Source of the DNA: a virus
Lineage: Duplodnaviria > Heunggongvirae > Uroviricota > Caudoviricetes
Virus record (IMG/VR): IMGVR_UViG_2737471827_000003
Coordinates: 1-20,580 of that record
Length of the DNA: 20,580 bases
Direction: 5' to 3' (one strand)
Part shown: positions 1,907 to 11,047 of the stretch, one piece after another
Layout: each line of letters starts with the position of its first letter
How positions within the stretch are numbered: position 1 is the stretch's first letter
Translations under genes and position numbers: made by a program
The notes under the pieces: model-generated
Told to the model about the DNA's origin: nothing
Seen by the model: the letters and a program-made list of their open reading frames with translations, nothing else
The model's database searches: none

Positions 1907-3478
1907 TTACTGAGAGCTCAGATCAACTTTCCAGGGCAACAGATCGCGTACCCGGTTTGCCGGCCAGTCCTGGATATGTTCAATGACGTAACGCAGCCAC
2001 TTTTCTGGCTCCACATTGTTCAGACGGCATGTGCCGATCAGCGAGTACAACACCGCCGCATGTTCACCACCGCTGTCGGAACCCGCGAACATCCAGTTTT
2101 TCCGGCCTACGGCCACTCCCCGTAAGGCGTTCTCTGCGATGTTGTTGTCGATTTCCACCCAGCCATTACTGCAGTACACGTTCAGTGCATCCCACTGTTT
2201 CAGCAGGTATGCGAACGCTTTTGCCGTATCTGAGTGACGCGACAGTGTTTTCATCTGTTGCTGTATCCAGTCATACAGTGACTGCATCAGTGGCGCGGCT
2301 CTGGCTTTTCTTGCCGCCAGACGCTGTTCTGCTGAACAGCCCCGGACCTCTGCCTCGATGGCATACAGTTCACCGATACGCTGCAGGGCTTCCGTGGTGA
2401 TGTAGGTGGACGCTCTTGCATGCACATCGTGGATTTTTCTCCGGGCATGAGCCATACACGCGGCTTCCGTTATTCTGCCGGATTCGTATAACGCCCGGTA
2501 ACCACCGTAAGCATCGGCCTGAAGCACACCGCTGTAACCGGCCAGGTGATTTTGTGGATGGATACCTTTCCGGTCCGGACTGTACGCGAACCAGACCGCC
2601 GGGGGCATCTGTGAACCGGCGTTACGGTCATCACGGACGTAGACCCACAGCCGGGCTGTCCGGGTTTTACCGCTGCCCGGCTCCTGGACCGGGACGGGGA
2701 TATCATCAGCATGGACTTTACCGGGCATCAGCACATACTGGCGCAGGACGTCATACAGCGGCTCCAGCAGTTCAGCAACAGCACCTGTCCAGCGCCCCAG
2801 TGTGGCACGGCTCAGCTCCACTCCCTGACGACGGTATATTTCTGACTGGCGGTATAACGGCAGATGGTCTGCATATTTCCCGGTGACAACATGGGCCAGA
2901 AGCCCCGCTCCGGCATAACTGCGTGCAATGGGTTTTGAAGGTACTGGTGCCTGCACGATATGGTCGCACCGGCAACAGGCCTGTTTCGGACGTTGTGTTT
3001 CGATAACCTTAAAGGCGCTGCTGATAAGCTCCAGTTGCTCTGACACATCACATCCCAGAGAACTGAGTTCACCACCACAGGCAGGACAGCATTCCTCTTC
3101 CGGCCGGATAACCCGGGTTTCACGGGGAAGTGAGGCCGGTAACGGTTTACGGGCTGAAGACTGGCGCAGGGCGGATGGCAGTACCGGGTCATATTGCTCA
3201 CCCAGCGTTTCCGCCATTTCTTCCTGAAGTGCGCTGATTCGCTCCTGTGCTTCCTGTATCTGCCGTTCGGTTTTTGCACGAAGTTTTTCTGAGCTTTTAC
3301 CGAACTGCATACGTTGCAGTTTCGCAACCAGCGCCTTCAGCCGGTTGATTTCGGAAGCATAAGCCGCCACCCGCTGTGAGAGCAGGCGGTTGTATTCAGC
3401 CATCTGGCGGATGGTGTCCTGTTGCGTCTGCAACAGTGCCCGCAGGCGGGCGTTCTCATGAGCAAGTGAGGTGTCCAT
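1907..3478 (-). CDS. IS66-family transposase (third and largest ORF of the element)
   Basis: 523 aa with an N-terminal coiled-coil/leucine-zipper region, a CxxC...CxxC cluster, and a central/C-terminal region typical of IS66 TnpC-type transposases. Confidence 0.85.
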
Positions 3479-3497
3479 ATCCTCACTTTACAACGGG

Positions 3498-3845
3498 TTA
3501 TATGCGGATTCCAGCGCGTTCCGTTCGTTTCGGGTGCTTCCAGTTGATACCTTCAAGAAGCATGGATAACTGAGCCGGAGTAAGGTGCACCTTGCCGTCA
3601 CGGGTGACTGGCCAGACGAAGCGGCCCCGCTCCAGGCGTTTGGTGAAGAGGCACAGTCCGTCACTGTCAGCCCACAACACTTTTATCTGGTCACCCCGGC
3701 GTCCGCGGAAGATGAACAGGTGTCCGGAGAACGGGTCATCCTTCAGGACGTTCTGAACTTTTGATGCCAGGCCGTTAAAGCCATTTCGCATATCGGTGAT
3801 ACCTGCAACCAGCCAGATACGCGAACCTGCAGGGAGAGATATCAT
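3498..3845 (-). CDS. IS66-family accessory protein, Orf2/TnpB-like
   Basis: 115 aa, MISLPAGSRIWLVAGITDMRNGFNGLA...; conserved IS66 Orf2 signature; start overlaps the upstream ORF (ATGA). Confidence 0.85.
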   Translation of the reverse strand: MISLPAGSRIWLVAGITDMRNGFNGLASKVQNVLKDDPFSGHLFIFRGRRGDQIKVLWADSDGLCLFTKRLERGRFVWPVTRDGKVHLTPAQLSMLLEGINWKHPKRTERAGIRI

Positions 3846-4522
3846 CAGTGGCTGCTCCCTTTTATTTCGCGGATAAGTGTCTGTAATAACGCCGGCGTCA
3901 GTTTACCTTTAAGCCTGAGAGTTCCGGCCGGCAGAACCAGCTCACAACACAGACTGTCGGACGGTGTATTTATCTGCTCTGGTTCCTGTGCGGGGGCCGG
4001 GATTTTATTATCCGGCTCCGGCGTTAACGTCACGGGAAGCAGTGCCGGCATATTTTTTCCGGAAGGCAGCAGGCCACCTTTCCGGTATTGATGGCGCCAG
4101 TTGAAGAGCAGGTTATCGTTGATTCCGTTTTCCCGGGCGATCTGCGCCACACAGGCTCCGGGCTGCAGTGACTGCTCCACTAAGGCGATTTTAAACTCAT
4201 AAGGGAAGTTGGGCCGCCGGGGACGTTTTTTTACCACGGGGGCTTCGGATATAACGGTGCTTTCAGGACGTACGACTGGTACCGTGGAAAATTGTCCGTA
4301 AAGGCAGGCATCAAGTTCCTGCTCCGACATGCCTGCGGGCAAAGGCCACGAAAGGCCAGCTCTCCGAAAGCGCACGAACATACTACAAACTGTTGATTTT
4401 GGTACACCCAGGCGACGCCCGGCCACAACCCGGGGTAAATGTTCTTCAAAGTGAAGACGTAAAGCTTCAGTGATCCAGGTCCGGTGTTTCATACGATAGT
4501 GTCCATTAAAAATGATGGACAT
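3845..4522 (-). CDS. IS66-family accessory protein, Orf1/TnpA-like, with an N-terminal HTH-like extension (true start uncertain)
   Basis: C-terminal part ...RRPNFPYEFKIALVEQSLQPGACVAQIARENGINDNLLFNWRHQYRKG resembles IS66 Orf1. The 225-aa longest ORF is longer than typical, so an internal start is possible. Confidence 0.65.
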   Translation of the reverse strand: MSIIFNGHYRMKHRTWITEALRLHFEEHLPRVVAGRRLGVPKSTVCSMFVRFRRAGLSWPLPAGMSEQELDACLYGQFSTVPVVRPESTVISEAPVVKKRPRRPNFPYEFKIALVEQSLQPGACVAQIARENGINDNLLFNWRHQYRKGGLLPSGKNMPALLPVTLTPEPDNKIPAPAQEPEQINTPSDSLCCELVLPAGTLRLKGKLTPALLQTLIREIKGSSH

Positions 4523-4659: not shown

Positions 4660-4735
4660 GGCCCTTTAGCTCAGAGGTGAGAGCGAGCGACTCATAATCG
4701 CCAGGTCGCTGGTTCAAATCCAGCAAGGGCCACCA
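4660..4735 (+). tRNA. tRNA-Ile2-like (anticodon CAU, presumably lysidine-modified; formally Met by anticodon)
   Basis: Cloverleaf folded by hand: acceptor GGCCCTT/AAGGGCC, anticodon loop CTCATAA, T-loop TTCAAAT, encoded CCA. Overall strongly resembles E. coli ileX-type tRNA (recalled from memory). Confidence 0.75.
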
Positions 4736-4736
4736 A

Positions 4737-4813
4737 CCGCCACTAGCTCATCAGGAAAGAGCGTCAACCCTTTAAGTTGAGTGTGCGAGGTTCGAGTCCC
4801 CGGTGGCGGTCCA
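4737..4813 (+). tRNA. tRNA, isotype uncertain (anticodon loop CCUUUAA; nominal anticodon UUU, but C at position 33 is atypical)
   Basis: Acceptor CCGCCAC/GTGGCGG, D-stem GCTC/GAGC, anticodon stem TCAAC/GTTGA, T-loop TTCGAGT, encoded CCA; 77 nt. One A:C mismatch in the T-stem. Confidence 0.6.
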
Positions 4814-4815
4814 GT

Positions 4816-4891
<76 letters not shown>

Positions 4892-4894
4892 TAT

Positions 4895-4969
<75 letters not shown>

Positions 4970-5895: not shown

Positions 5896-6429
5896 ATGAA
5901 CGCAAAAATCAGATACGGCCTGTCGGCTGCCGTTCTGGCACTGATTGCCGTCGGTGCGCTCGCGCCTGATATTCTCGACCAGTTTCTGGATGAAAAAGAA
6001 GGTAACCACACAACGGCATACCGCGATGGGTCCGGCATCTGGACCATCTGTCGGGGTGCCACGATGGTGGATGGAAAACCCGTTTTTCCCGGTATGAAAC
6101 TGTCGAAGGAAAAATGCGACCAGGTCAACGCCATTGAGCGTGATAAGGCGCTGGCATGGGTGGAGCGCAATATTAAAGTACCACTGACCGAACCACAAAA
6201 AGCGGGTATCGCGTCATTTTGTCCCTATAACATTGGCCCCGGTAAGTGTTTTCCGTCGACGTTTTATAAGCGGCTGAATGCCGGTGATCGTAAGGGCGCA
6301 TGCGAGGCGATTCGCTGGTGGATAAAAGATGGTGGGCGCGATTGCCGCATACGTTCAAATAACTGCTATGGACAGGTTATTCGTCGTGACCAGGAAAGCG
6401 CATTAGCCTGTTGGGGGATAGATCAGTGA
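5896..6429 (+). CDS. R: Endolysin, T4-lysozyme-type (GH24) with N-terminal SAR (signal-anchor-release) domain
   Basis: 177 aa; weakly hydrophobic Ala/Gly-rich N-terminus ([17 protein letters not shown]) followed by a catalytic E...D...T spacing ([22 protein letters not shown]); paired with a pinholin. Confidence 0.9.
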
Positions 6430-6893
6430 GCAGAGTCGCCGCGATTATTTATGCTCTGGTTATCTGCATCATCGTCTGCCTGTCGTGGGCGGTCAATCAT
6501 TACCGTGATAACGCCATCGCCTACAAAGAACAGCGTGATAAAAAAGTCAGTGAGCTGAAGCTGGCGATCGCCACCATCGCTGACATGCAGCAGCGTCAGC
6601 GTGATGTTGCTGCGCTCGATGCAAAGTACTCGAGAGAATTAGCCAATGCGCAAGCTGAAAATGAAACTCTGCGCGCTGATGTTGCCGCTGGCCGTAAGCG
6701 CCTGCGGGTCAATGCCAGTTGCTCCGCAGCCGTGCGTGAAGCCACCGGACCCACCAGCGTGGATAATGCAACCATCCCCCGACTGGCAGACACCGCTGAA
6801 CGGGATTATTTCACCCTCAGAGACCGATTGATGACGATGCAGATGCAACTGGAAGGGGCGCAGGAATATATCCGCACTCAGTGCATTAAGTAG
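6426..6893 (+). CDS. Rz: Spanin inner-membrane subunit Rz (i-spanin)
   Basis: Translation from GTG 6426, (M)[37 protein letters not shown]..., is near-identical in pattern to lambda Rz; overlaps the endolysin stop. Confidence 0.85.
6646..6831 (+). CDS. Rz1: Spanin outer-membrane lipoprotein Rz1 (o-spanin), nested inside Rz in another frame
   Basis: 61 aa [61 protein letters not shown]; lipobox-like LAVSAC and proline-rich, lambda Rz1-like. Confidence 0.85.
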
Positions 6894-6935
6894 CCTTTTT
6901 ATCGTGGTAAACATTTCGCAGGGTATGAGGTATTT

Positions 6936-7286
6936 ATGCCATCACGAATCCCACGCGCCTGCCGTAAGCGTGGATGTGCAGGTACAACCACAGACAGTTC
7001 TGGTTACTGCGATAAACATCGTGGCGAAGGATGGGTACAGCATCAACGCGGACTGAGCCGCCACCAGCGTGGCTATGGCTCGAAATGGGATGCCATACGT
7101 GCGCGCATACTGAAGCGTGATAATCATCTGTGTCAGAACTGCCTGCGCAATGGGAGAGTCGTTGAAGCCAGAACTGTGGACCACATCATTCCGAAAGCTC
7201 ATGGTGGCACGGATGCAGACAGTAACCTGCAGAGTCTGTGCTGGCCCTGTCATAAAGCAAAAACAGCGCGCGAACGCATCAATTGA
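6936..7286 (+). CDS. HNH endonuclease, phage packaging-associated
   Basis: 116 aa with CxxC...C...H, DHIIPKAHGG...N...LCWPCH (HNH motif); immediately upstream of the terminase genes. Confidence 0.85.
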   Translation: MPSRIPRACRKRGCAGTTTDSSGYCDKHRGEGWVQHQRGLSRHQRGYGSKWDAIRARILKRDNHLCQNCLRNGRVVEARTVDHIIPKAHGGTDADSNLQSLCWPCHKAKTARERIN

Positions 7287-7433
7287 TAACAGTTCCCATC
7301 TGTAGGGGAGGGGCGGGTCAAATCTCTGCAACCCTGGCTGCTCAGTACCGCCGCCTGACCTTTCCTCACATCGCCGCAGGTTCGAAAACTTTTTTTGGAA
7401 ATGTGAACAAACGATTGATAGGTAAAACCGATT

Positions 7434-7916
7434 ATGTCTGGACCCCCGAAAACCCCGCCACGCCTGCATTTGATACGAGGCAACCCCTCAAAGCGCCCCG
7501 TTAAAGACTCAAAAAAAACCGCTAAAAAGGATGAAAAAGGTCTCCCTAAAATTCCGCAACATTTAGGGGCGCAGGGGAAGTACTGGTTCAGGCGAATGGC
7601 AGAAGAACTGAATGCGGAAGGGATCATTTCTCAGCTTGATGCGCGTGCACTCGAGTTACTGGTGGAAGCCTACACCGAATACCGGCATCACTGCGAAACC
7701 CTCGATGTTGAGGGATATACCTACCGCACGGAAACGCAGAACGGTGATGTGCTGATTAAGGCACACCCCGCGGCGGCAATGAAAGCGGATGCCTGGAAGA
7801 GGATCCGGGCGATGCTTGCAGAGTTTGGCATGTCACCGGCAAGCCGGGCTAAAGTAAATATCGCCGGACCGGATGATGTCGATCCGCTGGCGGAGCTTTT
7901 AAAAGCGAGAGACTGA
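7434..7916 (+). CDS. Terminase small subunit (P27-family-like)
   Basis: 160 aa with a basic N-terminus, directly upstream of and overlapping the large terminase. Confidence 0.8.
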   Translation: MSGPPKTPPRLHLIRGNPSKRPVKDSKKTAKKDEKGLPKIPQHLGAQGKYWFRRMAEELNAEGIISQLDARALELLVEAYTEYRHHCETLDVEGYTYRTETQNGDVLIKAHPAAAMKADAWKRIRAMLAEFGMSPASRAKVNIAGPDDVDPLAELLKARD

Positions 7917-9673
7917 TGGCAAAAGTGGCTGACGGGATCCGCTACGCCGAACGTGTTGTTGCAGGAGAAATTGTTGCTGGCGAATTTGTCCGTCTGGCCT
8001 GCCAGCGTTTTCTTGATGATCTGAAGTACGGCGAGAAGCGGGGGATTTATTTCAGTGAACCCCGTGCGCAGCACATCCTGAATTTCTACAAATTTGTGCC
8101 CCATGTGAAAGGGGCGCTGGCAGGCCAGCCCATTGAACTGATGGACTGGCATGTATTTATCCTCATTAATATTTTTGGTTTTGTCATTCCGCTGGTGAAT
8201 GAAGAGACCGGGGAAGTTGTCATGCGCAGCGATGGCAGCGGACGCCCGGTGATGGTGCGCCGGTTCCGGACGGCGTACAACGAAGTCGCCCGTAAAAACG
8301 CAAAATCAACCCTGTCATCGGGTATCGGTCTGTATATGACGGGGGCAGATGGTGAAGGTGGTGCTGAGGTGTATTCAGCCGCAACCACGCGTGATCAGGC
8401 CAGAATCGTGTTTGAAGACGCCAAAAATATGGTCAGAAAAGCCCGGTCGACACTCGGGCGGTTGTTTGACTTCAACAAGTTGGCGATTTACCAGGAGCAG
8501 AGCGCATCAAAATTTGAACCGCTTTCCTCGGATGCAAACAACCTGGACGGTCTGAACATCCACTGTGCCATTATTGATGAGCTGCATGCACATAAAACCC
8601 GCGACGTGTGGGACGTTCTGGAGACGGCAACCGGTGCCCGTCTGCAGTCTCTGTTATTTGGCATCACCACGGCTGGCTTTAACAAGGAAGGGATTTGTTA
8701 CGAGCAGCGTGATTACGCCATCAAGGTATTGCGAGGCTATAACAGCGACGTGGAGGGCGCGGTAAAAGACGACTCCTACTTTGCGATCATTTACACGCTC
8801 GATGAGGGAGATGATCCGTTTGATGAAACGGTCTGGCAGAAAGCGAATCCTGGCCTGGGCATCTGTAAACGCTGGGATGATCTGCGTCGTCTGGCGAAAA
8901 AAGCGAAGGAGCAGGTCTCTGCGCGGGTAAATTTTTTTACCAAACACATGAATGTGTGGGTCACTGCCGAATCTGCCTGGATGGATATGATTAAGTGGGA
9001 GAAGTGCGAATACATTGCTCCACAACATGAGCTGAAAACATATCCCATGTGGGTCGGCGTCGACCTTGCTCATAAGATTGATATCTGTGCGGCGGCAAAA
9101 CTCTGGCGAACCGATAACGGACATGTTCATGCTGATTTTAAATTCTGGCTTCCGGAAGGACGGCTGGAACGATGCTCGCGGCAGCAGGCAGAACTTTACC
9201 GGAAGTGGGCGGAGATGGATAAGCTCATCCTGACGGATGGTGATGTTATCGATCATGCTCAGATAAAAAGTGACTTACTGGAATGGATTGGCGGTGAAAA
9301 CCTCAGGGAACTGGGATTTGACCCGTGGAGCGCAATGCAGTTCAGCCTGGCACTGGCTGAAGAAGGGATACCGCTGGTGGAGGTTCCGCAGACGGTCCGC
9401 AATCTGTCAGAGGCCATGAAGGAAACGGAATCACTGGTTTATGCCGGGCGTTTCCATCACAGCAATCATCCGGTCATGAACTGGATGATGTCTAACGTTA
9501 CTGTAAAACCGGACAAAAACGACAACATCTTCCCGAATAAATCCACGCCTGAAGCCAAAATCGACGGCCCTGTTGCACTTTTTACGGCCATGAGCCGCTT
9601 TCTGGTAAATGGCGGGGACGTGAATGACTTTCTGTCCACGCTTGATCCTGATGAGGACCTGTTAATTCTGTGA
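7916..9673 (+). CDS. Terminase large subunit
   Basis: 585 aa, with an N-terminal ATPase region and a C-terminal nuclease region; position between small terminase and portal. Confidence 0.85.
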   Translation: MAKVADGIRYAERVVAGEIVAGEFVRLACQRFLDDLKYGEKRGIYFSEPRAQHILNFYKFVPHVKGALAGQPIELMDWHVFILINIFGFVIPLVNEETGEVVMRSDGSGRPVMVRRFRTAYNEVARKNAKSTLSSGIGLYMTGADGEGGAEVYSAATTRDQARIVFEDAKNMVRKARSTLGRLFDFNKLAIYQEQSASKFEPLSSDANNLDGLNIHCAIIDELHAHKTRDVWDVLETATGARLQSLLFGITTAGFNKEGICYEQRDYAIKVLRGYNSDVEGAVKDDSYFAIIYTLDEGDDPFDETVWQKANPGLGICKRWDDLRRLAKKAKEQVSARVNFFTKHMNVWVTAESAWMDMIKWEKCEYIAPQHELKTYPMWVGVDLAHKIDICAAAKLWRTDNGHVHADFKFWLPEGRLERCSRQQAELYRKWAEMDKLILTDGDVIDHAQIKSDLLEWIGGENLRELGFDPWSAMQFSLALAEEGIPLVEVPQTVRNLSEAMKETESLVYAGRFHHSNHPVMNWMMSNVTVKPDKNDNIFPNKSTPEAKIDGPVALFTAMSRFLVNGGDVNDFLSTLDPDEDLLIL

Positions 9674-9831
9674 AACAGCTTATTACTGATATGACCGGGC
9701 TGATCGGTTTCGGTTTGCTCACTGCTGGCGTTTATCTGTATGCAGGTCTGCCAGCGTCTCTGATGCTGTCTGGCTGTTTGTTGCTGCTTTATGCACTGGT
9801 GGTGTCCATGAGGAGAAAACATGCTTCTTGA
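9670..9831 (+). CDS. Small hydrophobic protein (about 53 aa, likely membrane), hypothetical
   Basis: GTG 9670 overlaps the terminase stop; translation VKQLITDMTGLIGFGLLTAGVYLYAGLPASLMLSGCLLLLYALVVSMRRKHAS; stop overlaps the portal start. Below the ORF-track length cutoff. Confidence 0.35.
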   Translation: MKQLITDMTGLIGFGLLTAGVYLYAGLPASLMLSGCLLLLYALVVSMRRKHAS

Positions 9832-11047
9832 TGCTCTGTTTCGCAGTGAGCCTCTGGAAAATCCCTCGGTTCCGGTAACCGGAGAGGCCGCTGAGACGGA
9901 TAATATTTTTGCCCGGGATGTGTATGTCAGTCCGGAAACATCCATGAAGCTGGCTGCTGTCTATGCCTGTATTTATGTTATTTCATCCAGTGTGGCTCAG
10001 ATGCCCCTGCATGTGATGCGAAAAACGAATGAGCATGTTCAGCCGGCACGCGATCATCCGTTGTTCTGGCTCGTTCATGATGAACCTAATGCCTGGCAGA
10101 CCAGCTATAAGTGGCGGGAACTGAAGCAGCGTCATGTGCTGGGGTGGGGCAATGGTTATACGTGGGTAAAACGTAATCGTCGTGGCGAGGTTACCAGCCT
10201 TGAATGCTGTATGCCATGGGAAACCACGTTACTTAACACCGGTGGGCGTCATACTTACGGGGTGTATAACGAAGAGGGGGCATTTGCGGTAAGTCCGGAT
10301 GACATGATCCATATCAGGGCGCTGGGAAACAATCAGAAAATGGGACTGAGCCCGATCATGCAGCATGCTGAAACCATTGGTATGGGAATGAGTGGCCAGC
10401 AGTATACCAGCGCCTTTTTTAACGGTAATGCCCGTCCTGCCGGTATTATTTCTGTGAAAAATGAACTGAACGAACAGAGCTGGGGCAGGCTTAAAAATAT
10501 GTGGCAGCGGGCGGTGACAGCGCTTCGCAGCCAGGAAAATAAAACCATGCTGCTGCCTGCGCAACTGGATTACCGCGCTCTGACAGTTTCTCCGGTGGAT
10601 GCTCAGATCATTGATATGACCAAGCTGAACAGGTCGATGATTGCCGGGATTTTTAATGTCCCGGCGCACATGATTAATGACCTGGAAAAAGCCACATTTT
10701 CGAATATTACGCAGCAGGCGATTCAGTTTGTTCGCTACACGATGATGCCCTGGGTTGCGAACTGGGAGCAGGAGCTTAACCGTCGCCTGTTTACCCGCAC
10801 AGAACGGGCTGCCGGGTATTACGTTCGTTTCAACCTTACAGGATTGCTCCGCGGGACTCCGCAGGAGCGTGCGCAGTTTTATCACTTTGCCATTACAGAT
10901 GGCTGGATGAGCCGGAATGAAGCGAGGGCATTTGAGGACATGAACCCGGTTGATGGTCTGGATGAAATGCTGGTCAGCGTAAATGCAGCAAATCCGTTGA
11001 ATGATTTTAAAGATACGAAAGGCAAAGAGGAAAAGAACGATGAATGA
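9821..11047 (+). CDS. Portal protein (HK97-family)
   Basis: 408 aa; position after terminase; sequence character typical of HK97-type portals. Confidence 0.85.
   Translation: MLLDALFRSEPLENPSVPVTGEAAETDNIFARDVYVSPETSMKLAAVYACIYVISSSVAQMPLHVMRKTNEHVQPARDHPLFWLVHDEPNAWQTSYKWRELKQRHVLGWGNGYTWVKRNRRGEVTSLECCMPWETTLLNTGGRHTYGVYNEEGAFAVSPDDMIHIRALGNNQKMGLSPIMQHAETIGMGMSGQQYTSAFFNGNARPAGIISVKNELNEQSWGRLKNMWQRAVTALRSQENKTMLLPAQLDYRALTVSPVDAQIIDMTKLNRSMIAGIFNVPAHMINDLEKATFSNITQQAIQFVRYTMMPWVANWEQELNRRLFTRTERAAGYYVRFNLTGLLRGTPQERAQFYHFAITDGWMSRNEARAFEDMNPVDGLDEMLVSVNAANPLNDFKDTKGKEEKNDE

What the first reader, a model, noticed from the sequence alone, without database searches (positions are those of the whole stretch)
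7287..7433. Probable cos site between the HNH endonuclease and the small terminase
In HK97-type phages an HNH endonuclease encoded at the genome end works with terminase at cos, which lies between the two genes. This 147-bp intergenic segment contains a G/C-rich block (GGGGAGGGGCGGGTC, about 7303-7317) reminiscent of cohesive-end sequences, and it is the only sizeable non-coding gap in the packaging module.
Basis: inference. Interest (0 to 1): 0.45.

Follow-up and report, generated by a model that had tools for sequence, protein, structure and literature searches.

The report
HK97/P27-type phage cos site

Summary
The window carries Rz, HNH (6936-7286), a 147-bp gap, a P27-family TerS (7434-7916), an HK97-like TerL, portal, protease and capsid genes.

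The gap aligns base for base with three reference ends. These are the phiP27 'cos-site' annotation (CGCCCGCCCC), the SfI ends mapped by run-off sequencing (TGCCCGCCCC), and the physical ends of the HK97 record (...GAC|CGCCGCCAAA| then GTTTG...).

In that register the predicted cohesive end is CGCCGCCTGA at 7349-7358. By analogy with HK97 it would be a 10-nt 3' overhang. It is not the G-block, which lies at 7305-7319.

Across 126 distinct relatives:
- The G-block and ACCGCCGCC are nearly invariant.
- They keep a fixed spacing in 124-125 of the 126.
- The 18-nt spacer between them has 77 variants.
- The downstream block 7366-7396 changes with TerS type, so it is the likely TerS binding site.

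I found no promoter, terminator, stable RNA fold or covariation. The G-richness alone is within chance expectation.

No virion ends were mapped for this lineage, so the exact nick positions are inferred. This is a new member of a known kind, and interest is low. The one open point is the role of the rigidly spaced G-block, which HK97 also has.

The parts
6936..7286 (+). HNH endonuclease gene, the terminase accessory nuclease (counterpart of HK97 gp74)
   Evidence: Pfam PF01844 E 8e-17 over the full model. Both CxxC pairs and the H-N-H residues are visible in the translation. It is 92% identical to phiP27 L34, 74-78% to the SfV, SfI, mEp235 and Klebsiella phage HNH proteins, and 37% to HK97 gp74.
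7305..7322 (+). G-block GGGGAGGGGCGGGTCAAA: a conserved upstream cos sub-site of unknown partner. It is not the cohesive end.
   Evidence: Nearly invariant across 115-127 distinct relatives. G7311, G7312 and G7316 are 100% conserved; A7321 and A7322 are 99%. It is also present in HK97, P27, SfV, SfI and ST64B, which have different TerS proteins. It keeps a fixed ungapped distance to the core in 124-125 of 126 relatives.
7326..7343 (.). Spacer of fixed length and variable sequence
   Evidence: There are 77 distinct 18-mers among 126 relatives, with essentially no indels. Information content is 0.15-1.0 bit per column, against 1.5-2.0 in the flanking blocks.
7344..7360 (+). cos core (cosN equivalent), AGTACCGCCGCCTGACC
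   Evidence: ACCGCCGCC (7347-7355) is exact in 120 of 126 relatives found with a filter that did not use this motif. The same string ends the HK97 record.
7349..7358 (+). Predicted 10-nt cohesive end CGCCGCCTGA. The top-strand nick falls between 7358 and 7359 and the bottom-strand nick between 7348 and 7349. The 3'-protruding polarity is taken from HK97.
   Evidence: It is in register with HK97 (GAC|CGCCGCCAAA|GTTTG), the P27 annotated cos-site (GAC|CGCCCGCCCC|GTC) and the SfI run-off gap (GAC|TGCCCGCCCC|). The HK97 10-nt 3' overhang is stated in PMC11331095 and PMC9410871. The Fraca assembly breakpoint lies 0-3 nt after the equivalent nick. This is inferred, not mapped.
7366..7396 (+). Conserved downstream block TCACATCGCCGCAGGTTCGAAAACTTTTTTT, the predicted TerS recognition site (cosB equivalent) with an A4/T7 tract
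   Evidence: Positions 7384-7394 are 94-100% conserved and were not part of the search pattern; 7366-7382 was the search pattern itself. The block is 89% identical in Klebsiella phages. It is replaced by other sequences in P27/SfV and in HK97, whose TerS proteins are only 18-20% identical to this one. The HK97 TerS minimal site is +15 to +29 and includes an A-tract. This block spans +8 to +38.
7408..7420 (-). Perfect match to the IHF consensus WATCAANNNNTTR (TATCAATCGTTTG); a possible bending site
   Evidence: It is one of only 2 matches in 20.6 kb, where 0.64 are expected in the whole window. It is retained in the E. coli-group variants despite changes in the N positions, and absent from the Klebsiella/Enterobacter group. 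This is a post-hoc observation and weak.
7434..7916 (+). Small terminase, P27 family
   Evidence: Pfam PF05119 E 1e-25. It is 75% identical to mEp235 TerS, 72% to Fraca, 20% to P27 and SfV, and has no BLASTP match to HK97 gp1.
7916..9673 (+). Large terminase (ATPase plus nuclease)
   Evidence: Pfam PF03354 and PF20441. It is 37.5% identical to P27 TerL, 36% to SfV, 28.5% to HK97 gp2 and 87% to Fraca.

Best explanation
The gap is the cos site of a temperate HK97/P27-type siphophage. This is where the concatemeric genome is cut and packaging starts and ends.

**Proposed mechanism** (inferred from HK97 biochemistry):
1. TerS binds the conserved block just right of the cut, 7366-7396, which contains an A/T tract.
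2. TerS positions TerL on the core at 7344-7360.
3. TerL, stimulated by the adjacent HNH endonuclease, nicks the top strand between 7358 and 7359 and the bottom strand between 7348 and 7349.
4. This leaves 10-nt 3' overhangs: CGCCGCCTGA on the right end and its complement on the left end.
5. DNA is then packaged rightward, terS first, until the next cos.

The G-block at 7305-7322 sits 41 bp upstream of the top-strand nick and is a conserved third sub-site. Most likely it is a contact for TerL or HNH during cleavage or termination, in the position that cosQ holds in lambda.

**Shown:** gene content, homology, register, conservation pattern and fixed spacing.
**Inferred:** nick positions, overhang polarity, and which protein binds which block.
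For: **Module content.** Rz, HNH, TerS (P27 family), TerL, portal, HK97-family protease, capsid protein.

**Register with three reference ends.** The gap aligns with phiP27, whose record annotates a 10-nt cos-site CGCCCGCCCC. The SfI ends were mapped by run-off sequencing of virion DNA, giving a 10-nt gap TGCCCGCCCC (PMC3636060; sequence). The HK97 record ends ...GACCGCCGCCAAA and starts GTTTGAATTT, with a 10-nt 3' overhang and cleavage between -1 and +1 (PMC11331095, PMC9410871). In all three the end lies 41 nt from the T of TCAAA in the G-block. I counted this by hand from the sequences.

**Conservation pattern.** In 126 distinct relatives the G-block and ACCGCCGCC are nearly invariant and in fixed register, while the spacer has 77 variants.

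**Downstream block tracks TerS.** The block right of the cut changes with TerS family, whereas the G-block and core do not. Nucleotide similarity to P27 stops at about 7355, inside the core.

**Assembly breakpoint.** Phage Fraca (TerL 87%, TerS 72% identical) was assembled from virion DNA. Its contig carries a chimeric junction 0-3 nt after the predicted top-strand nick.

**Negative results for rivals.** No promoter or terminator was found, and the RNA fold is no better than shuffles.
Against: - No virion-end mapping exists for this TerS/TerL lineage. The nearest mapped relatives have TerL only 28-37% identical.
- I could not read the P27 paper, so how its cos annotation was determined is unknown.
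- None of about 160 IMG/VR and metagenome contigs ends at the predicted nick. This is uninformative, since most are prophage DNA.
- The Fraca junction is an assembly artefact of uncertain origin.
- An IS66 element lies between Q and the late genes. This particular prophage may therefore not express its packaging genes normally.
- The role assigned to the G-block is pure inference.
Confidence: 0.82

Rival explanations
1. The G-rich block GGGGAGGGGCGGGTC (7305-7319) is itself the cohesive end.
For: It is G/C-rich like many cos overhangs and is strongly conserved. In P27 and SfV its GGGGCGGG is the reverse complement of the mapped overhang's CCCGCCCC.
Against: In HK97, P27 and SfI the mapped or annotated end is the C-rich block 41 nt downstream, not the G-block. 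The Fraca breakpoint is also at the downstream site.
Confidence: 0.04
2. The gap is mainly an expression signal for the head genes: a promoter, a terminator or attenuator after the lysis/HNH genes, or a structured RNA leader. It would not be a DNA cleavage site.
For: The G-block and core form an imperfect inverted repeat, and the minimum-free-energy fold pairs them. A T7 run follows a short hairpin at 7375-7406.
Against: No sigma-70 promoter and no intrinsic terminator was found on either strand. The fold energy is -35.9 kcal/mol against -38.2 +/- 3.6 in shuffles, z +0.65. Changes in the G-block, such as C7314 to G in 37 sequences and G7313 to C in 20, are never compensated in the invariant core. 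Lambdoid late transcripts read through cos under Q antitermination; that last point is established knowledge, not tested here.
Confidence: 0.05
3. The sequence is a cos by descent but is inactive here, because the prophage is defective. Alternatively, this terminase lineage has switched to headful packaging.
For: An IS66 element (1907-4522) is inserted between the Q gene and the late region, and relatives lack it. The window's variant of the 4 nt after the predicted nick (CCTT) occurs once among 115 sequences, where CCCT is usual in the E. coli group.
Against: All packaging ORFs are intact. The core and both flanking blocks match the family consensus. Near-identical modules occur in named phage records, some sequenced from virions, such as Evi, phi467 and the vB_Eco series. 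TerL clusters with cos-type HK97, P27 and SfV terminases.
Confidence: 0.07
4. The gap encodes a small protein: the 73-aa TTG ORF at 7283-7504, or an HNH read-through ending at the TGA at 7356-7358.
For: An ORF is listed mechanically. One Klebsiella phage record annotates a 29-aa ORF here. Spacer length is fixed. The last 3 nt of the predicted overhang are TAA, TAG or TGA in most relatives and are in frame with HNH.
Against: The T-run length varies between 7 and 14 among relatives, which would break a frame running through it. The frame ending at 7358 starts behind a TGA-TAA double stop and has no ATG, GTG or TTG (sequence). CAA, TTA and AAA variants also exist. Spacer variation shows no codon periodicity that I could see.
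Confidence: 0.02

Closest known systems
Bacteriophage HK97 cos (gp74 HNH, cos, gp1 TerS, gp2 TerL)
   Same: Same gene order. Same G-run followed by TCAAA. Same 41-nt distance to the top-strand nick. The first 7 nt of the overhang are the same (CGCCGCC). There is an A/T tract downstream where TerS binds. TerL is homologous (28.5% identity, E 8e-42) and HNH is homologous at 37%.
   Different: TerS is unrelated at sequence level: no BLASTP hit, and HK97 gp1 has no Pfam match. The downstream block therefore differs completely, and its T-tract lies at +32 to +38 rather than +24 to +30. The last 3 nt of the overhang are TGA, not AAA.
phiP27 / SfV / SfI / ST64B cos (10-nt CGCCCGCCCC or TGCCCGCCCC)
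   Same: The HNH gene is 74-92% identical. The G-block is identical (GGGGAGGGGCGGGTCAAATC). Spacing and overhang length are the same. TerS belongs to the same Pfam family, PF05119.
   Different: TerS is only 20% identical and TerL only 36-37.5%. The overhang is CGCCGCCTGA rather than (C/T)GCCCGCCCC. The downstream block is different. Nucleotide similarity ends inside the core at about 7355.
mEp235 / Fraca / Klebsiella phage '1 LV-2017' group, whose cos has not been mapped experimentally as far as I could find
   Same: Same TerS family at 72-75% identity. Same downstream block, TCACA(C/T)CGCCGCAGGTT(A/C)GAAAACTTTTTT. Same core, GACCGCCGCCTAA.
   Different: The window has TAC...TGA instead of GAC...TAA. 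The leader between the T-tract and the terS start codon differs, and only the E. coli group has the IHF-consensus match.
Lambda cos (cosQ, cosN, cosB)
   Same: Three-part logic: an upstream element, a nicking site, and a downstream small-terminase site that may include host-factor bending. Packaging is processive from cos to cos. This is established knowledge.
   Different: Lambda makes 12-nt 5' overhangs, needs no HNH protein, and has unrelated terminase subunits and site sequences. The resemblance is functional analogy only.

Membership tests
HK97-type HNH-assisted cos packaging site | Lies between an HNH endonuclease gene and terS/terL at the junction of the late-lysis and head modules | tested here: met
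   HNH at 6936-7286, TerS at 7434-7916, TerL at 7916-9673, with Rz upstream and portal downstream.
HK97-type HNH-assisted cos packaging site | TerL of the HK97/P27 cos clade, together with an HK97-like portal, protease and capsid | tested here: met
   TerL is 28.5% identical to HK97 and 37.5% to P27. Pfam finds TerL_ATPase, TerL_nuclease and Phage_portal. RefSeq annotates an HK97 family prohead protease and gp10-family protein in a 98% identical prophage.
HK97-type HNH-assisted cos packaging site | Sequence homology to an experimentally mapped cohesive end, in the same register | tested here: met
   ACCGCCGCC is shared with the HK97 terminus. The alignment columns coincide with the P27 cos feature and the SfI run-off gap. 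The 41-nt distance from TCAAA is the same in all.
HK97-type HNH-assisted cos packaging site | Catalytically competent HNH protein | tested here: met
   Full-length match to PF01844 (positions 1-47 of 47, E 8e-17). CQNC and CWPC pairs plus DH...N...H are present. Activity was not tested.
HK97-type HNH-assisted cos packaging site | Virion DNA with unique ends and 10-nt 3' overhangs | not testable with these tools
   No read data were available. There is only circumstantial support from the Fraca contig junction at +0 to +3 of the predicted nick. No public contig ends at the nick.
HK97-type HNH-assisted cos packaging site | Sequence-specific TerS binding just downstream of the cut | not testable with these tools
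   Inferred from the conserved block 7366-7396, which co-varies with TerS family, and from the HK97 precedent of +15 to +29.
Lambda-type cos (5' overhang, gpNu1/gpA) | Lambda-like terminase subunits and cosN sequence | tested here: not met
   TerS is in the Terminase_4/P27 family and TerL is in the HK97 clade. An HNH gene is present. No similarity to lambda appeared in any search.

The most novel reading that the evidence does not exclude
The G-block (a G-run followed by TCAAA) would be a distinct, so far uncharacterised cos sub-site. It would be shared by HK97, the P27/SfV group and the mEp235/Klebsiella group despite their three unrelated TerS specificities. It is held at a rigid 41 bp, about four helical turns, from the top-strand nick across a freely varying spacer. 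On this reading it is the docking site for the HNH protein or for a second TerL nuclease, or a cosQ-like termination signal, and is needed for second-strand nicking. That would make the open HK97 question of which nuclease cuts which strand testable by mutating a defined site. I found no mention of such an element in the HK97 papers I could read. I could not read Juhala 2000, Kala 2014 or the P27 and SfV papers, so it may already be described.
Probability: 0.4. Interest if true: 0.45.

Novelty: new member of a known kind. Interest (0 to 1): 0.2.

Why it matters
This matters mainly for annotation. None of the 11 closely matching E. coli phage records carries a cos feature under the match. The module occurs in 1055 of 5426 complete E. 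coli genomes.

A correct cos coordinate lets genomes be oriented properly. It helps interpret transduction or cos-satellite mobilisation, and helps design packaging-competent cosmids for this terminase type.

The comparative picture also gives ready-made hypotheses for the HK97 packaging model system. That picture is a rigidly spaced G-block, a conserved core, and a downstream block specific to each TerS family.

Tried and rejected
1. **Composition as evidence.** The G-richness of the block is within chance expectation.
2. **RNA structure or hairpin between the G-block and the core.** The fold is no better than shuffles and there are no compensatory changes.
3. **Promoter or terminator.** None found.
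4. **Small ORF or HNH read-through ending at the TAA/TAG/TGA in the core.** There is no start codon, a double stop lies upstream, and the T-run length varies.
5. **Contig ends at the nick.** I looked in IMG/VR (analysed) and in metagenome contigs and found none. This is uninformative because the hits are mostly prophage DNA.
6. **Record ends as physical ends.** The mEp235, SfV and ST64B record ends are artificial linearisation points, not physical ends. Only the HK97 and SfI record ends are informative.
7. **Literature search by overhang sequence.** It returned only unrelated papers.
8. **Papers not held.** The P27 paper and Kala 2014 are not in the library.
9. **TerS search in IMG/VR.** It returned only relatives 98-100% identical, which are useless for footprinting. 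A DNA pattern search gave the needed diversity instead.

Full report
**Observation**

The window holds a lambdoid late region. In order it contains:
- a DUF968 gene, RusA and Q (1047-1742)
- an IS66 element on the minus strand (1907-4522)
- four tRNAs (4660-4969)
- holin, lysozyme and Rz (6411-6893)
- an HNH endonuclease (6936-7286)
- a 147-bp gap (7287-7433)
- a P27-family small terminase (7434-7916)
- a large terminase (7916-9673) and portal (9821-11047)
- HK97-type head and tail genes

The block GGGGAGGGGCGGGTC is at 7305-7319, two bases to the right of the stated position.

Its G-richness is not statistically unusual. The window has 3 such clusters against 4.4 +/- 2.0 in shuffles.

The statement that this is the only sizeable gap in the packaging module depends on a 53-aa ORF at 9670-9831. 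RefSeq calls it 'hypothetical protein' in a 98% identical prophage. Without that ORF, terL and portal are also 147 bp apart.

**What it is**

A megablast of 6900-7950 against phage records found 13 records. Eleven are E. coli phages with 92-100% query coverage, and none of those has a cos annotation. The other two records are both phiP27, and they carry a misc_feature 'cos-site' under the match.

That feature is the 10-mer CGCCCGCCCC. It lies 61 nt after the P27 HNH stop codon. In the pairwise alignment it falls on window positions of about 7349-7358, roughly 30 nt downstream of the G-block, which is identical in the two phages.

A more sensitive search found the same architecture at or near the record ends of SfV, SfI, ST64B and mEp235.

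For SfI, run-off sequencing of virion DNA from both ends gave a 10-nt gap, TGCCCGCCCC, relative to the prophage (PMC3636060). The SfI record ends with exactly that string.

The HK97 record ends ...GGGGGGGGGATCAAATCTTCAAAACCTTTGCCCCAAATGACCGCCGCCAAA and begins GTTTGAATTTAACGCTAACCCGATTTTTTTAG. HK97 has 10-nt 3' overhangs. Its cleavage site is defined between -1 and +1. Its TerS minimal site is +15 to +29 and includes an A-tract. The HNH protein gp74 stimulates cos cleavage (PMC11331095 and PMC9410871). The residue numbering in that paper (T16, and G21 on the complementary strand) fits record position 1 being +1. The HK97 overhang is therefore CGCCGCCAAA.

Written in register, the four sites are:

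| Phage | Sequence around the cohesive end |
|---|---|
| HK97 | GAC\|CGCCGCCAAA\|GTT |
| P27 | GAC\|CGCCCGCCCC\|GTC |
| SfI | GAC\|TGCCCGCCCC\| |
| window | TAC\|CGCCGCCTGA\|CCT |

In each of the three references, the distance from the T of the G-block's TCAAA to the top-strand nick is 41 nt. I counted this by hand from the sequences. The window shows the same 41 nt for the predicted nick.

HK97 and P27 TerL are only 24.5% identical to each other. The window's TerL is 28.5% and 37.5% identical to them. Geometry kept across that span very probably also holds here. The predicted cohesive end is therefore 7349-7358.

**Comparative footprint**

I used the 17-mer TCACAYCGCCGCAGGTT, taken from the block downstream of the cut, to pull relatives. 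The sources were IMG/VR and metagenome contigs.

I filtered only on the downstream A/T tract. That left 127 distinct regions, one of which is the chimeric head of the Fraca record, so 126 are true relatives.

Among those 126:
- ACCGCCGCC is exact in 120.
- The G-block, the AA of TCAAA and ACCG sit at the same ungapped offsets in 124. In the MAFFT alignment of the first 115 sequences, 114 have the same 31-nt distance.
- The 18-nt spacer between them has 77 different sequences.

Per-column information content is 1.5-2.0 bits in the G-block and core, and 0.15-1.0 bits in the spacer.

The first seven bases of the predicted overhang are almost invariant. The last three vary, as TAA, TGA, TAG or CAA.

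The block to the right of the cut is conserved within this TerS family, and 7384-7394 was not part of the search pattern. Unrelated sequences replace it in P27/SfV and in HK97, whose TerS proteins are 18-20% identical or unrelated. The G-block and core are common to all three groups.

Nucleotide similarity to P27 ends at about 7355, inside the core. The cut site is therefore also a mosaic joint. The HNH gene and G-block travel together on the left. The TerS site, terS and terL travel together on the right.

**Circumstantial physical evidence**

Phage Fraca has TerL 87% and TerS 72% identical to the window's. It was sequenced from virion DNA with a ligation-based kit and assembled with SPAdes at k up to 127 (PMC6969025).

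The first 127 nt of its record duplicate an internal terL segment. They join the cos region at ...CCT|CTTTTCACATCG. At the other end of the record, the intact cos reads ...GACCGCCGCCTAACCTCTTTTCACATCG.

The junction is therefore 0-3 nt after the predicted top-strand nick. A random breakpoint in 43.7 kb would fall there with a probability of about 1e-4. I treat this as supportive only, because the origin of the artefact is uncertain.

In the Evi record, the stretch equivalent to 7208-7389 is replaced by an inverted copy of the terS 5' region. That also looks like an assembly problem around physical ends.

**Rivals**

- **Expression signal.** No promoter-like or terminator-like site occurs in 6800-7600. 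The RNA fold of the gap is no more stable than shuffles, z +0.65.
- **Hairpin between G-block and core.** The two form an imperfect inverted repeat. However, frequent substitutions in the G-block are never compensated in the invariant core. They are two DNA sites rather than a hairpin.
- **Small ORF.** Rejected. There is no start codon in the frame that ends in the core, a double stop lies upstream, and the T-run length varies.
- **Defective prophage.** This remains possible because of the IS66 insertion between Q and the late genes. All packaging genes and cos blocks are intact.

**Mechanism, and what is shown versus inferred**

Shown: the gene content, the homology and register with the reference ends, the three-block conservation pattern with rigid spacing, and the co-variation of the right-hand block with TerS family.

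Inferred from HK97 biochemistry:
- TerS binds 7366-7396.
- TerL together with HNH makes staggered nicks at 7358/7359 and 7348/7349.
- The ends are 10-nt 3' overhangs.
- Packaging runs rightward.

The function of the G-block is unknown. Its position and rigid spacing suggest a protein contact on the same helical face as the nick site. Candidates are HNH, a second TerL subunit, or a cosQ-like termination element.

A perfect IHF consensus at 7408-7420 on the minus strand is one of two in the window. It hints at host-factor bending as in lambda cosB. It is confined to the E. coli group of relatives.

**Comparison and novelty**

This is a member of the HK97/P27 class of HNH-assisted cos sites. Its TerS-side block is shared with mEp235, Fraca and several Klebsiella phages, for which I found no experimental mapping.

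The module is very common, occurring in 1055 of 5426 complete E. coli genomes.

The finding is correct but ordinary: a new member of a known kind. The only point of possible wider interest is the conserved, rigidly spaced G-block. HK97 has it too, and the HK97 papers I could read do not discuss it.

**Verdict**

| Item | Score |
|---|---|
| Observation | partly confirmed |
| Interpretation | supported, with the cohesive end relocated to 7349-7358 |
| Confidence that a cos lies in the gap | about 0.9 |
| Confidence in the exact nicks and polarity | about 0.7 |
| Interest | 0.2 |

Noticed in passing
window 1907-4522 (- strand): A complete IS66-family element: DDE transposase at 1907-3478, TnpB-like ORF at 3498-3845, HTH ORF at 3845-4522. 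It is inserted between the Q antiterminator gene (1047-1742) and the tRNA cluster and late genes. A 98% similar E. coli prophage has only about 210 nt there. The insertion may disturb late transcription of this prophage.
   Followed up: partly
window 4660-4969: A four-tRNA cluster (CAT anticodon, Lys-TTT, Thr-TGT, Gly-TCC) lies upstream of the holin gene. ARAGORN calls the CAT tRNA Met, whereas RefSeq annotates the equivalent gene in a relative as tRNA-Ile.
   Followed up: no
window 7408-7420 (- strand): A perfect IHF consensus, TATCAATCGTTTG, lies between the predicted TerS site and the terS start codon. It is one of only two matches in the window. It is kept in E. coli-group relatives and absent from the Klebsiella/Enterobacter group.
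   Followed up: partly
window about 7355; L001 (phiP27): Nucleotide similarity to phiP27 (83% over the HNH gene and G-block) stops inside the cos core. The cut site therefore coincides with a mosaic recombination joint between an HNH/G-block module and a TerS-site/terS/terL module.
   Followed up: partly
L218/L006 1-127 (Escherichia phage Fraca, LR597645.1): The first 127 nt of the deposited genome duplicate an internal terL segment (1843-1969) fused to the cos region. This is a k=127 assembly chimera, so the record is not a clean genome. Its junction coincides with the predicted left end.
   Followed up: yes
L002 1808-1930 (Escherichia phage Evi, LR597642.1): The 3' end of HNH and the whole cos core are replaced by an inverted copy of the 5' part of terS, joined at the T-run. 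This is probably an assembly artefact at the physical ends. The record annotates spurious ORFs there.
   Followed up: partly
window 7356-7358 and relatives: The last three bases of the predicted overhang are TAA, TGA or TAG in 106 of 115 relatives and are in frame with HNH. However, they lie behind a TGA-TAA double stop with no start codon between. I judged this a coincidence.
   Followed up: partly
window 9670-9831: A 53-aa GTG ORF overlaps the terL stop and the portal start and fills the other 147-bp gap. It has no Pfam match and is annotated 'hypothetical protein' in RefSeq.
   Followed up: no
window 7280-7288, 7412-7420, 7467-7475: There are three copies of C(A/G)(A/T)TTGATA, one at the HNH stop, one in the terS leader where it overlaps the IHF match, and one inside terS. 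They may be chance.
   Followed up: no
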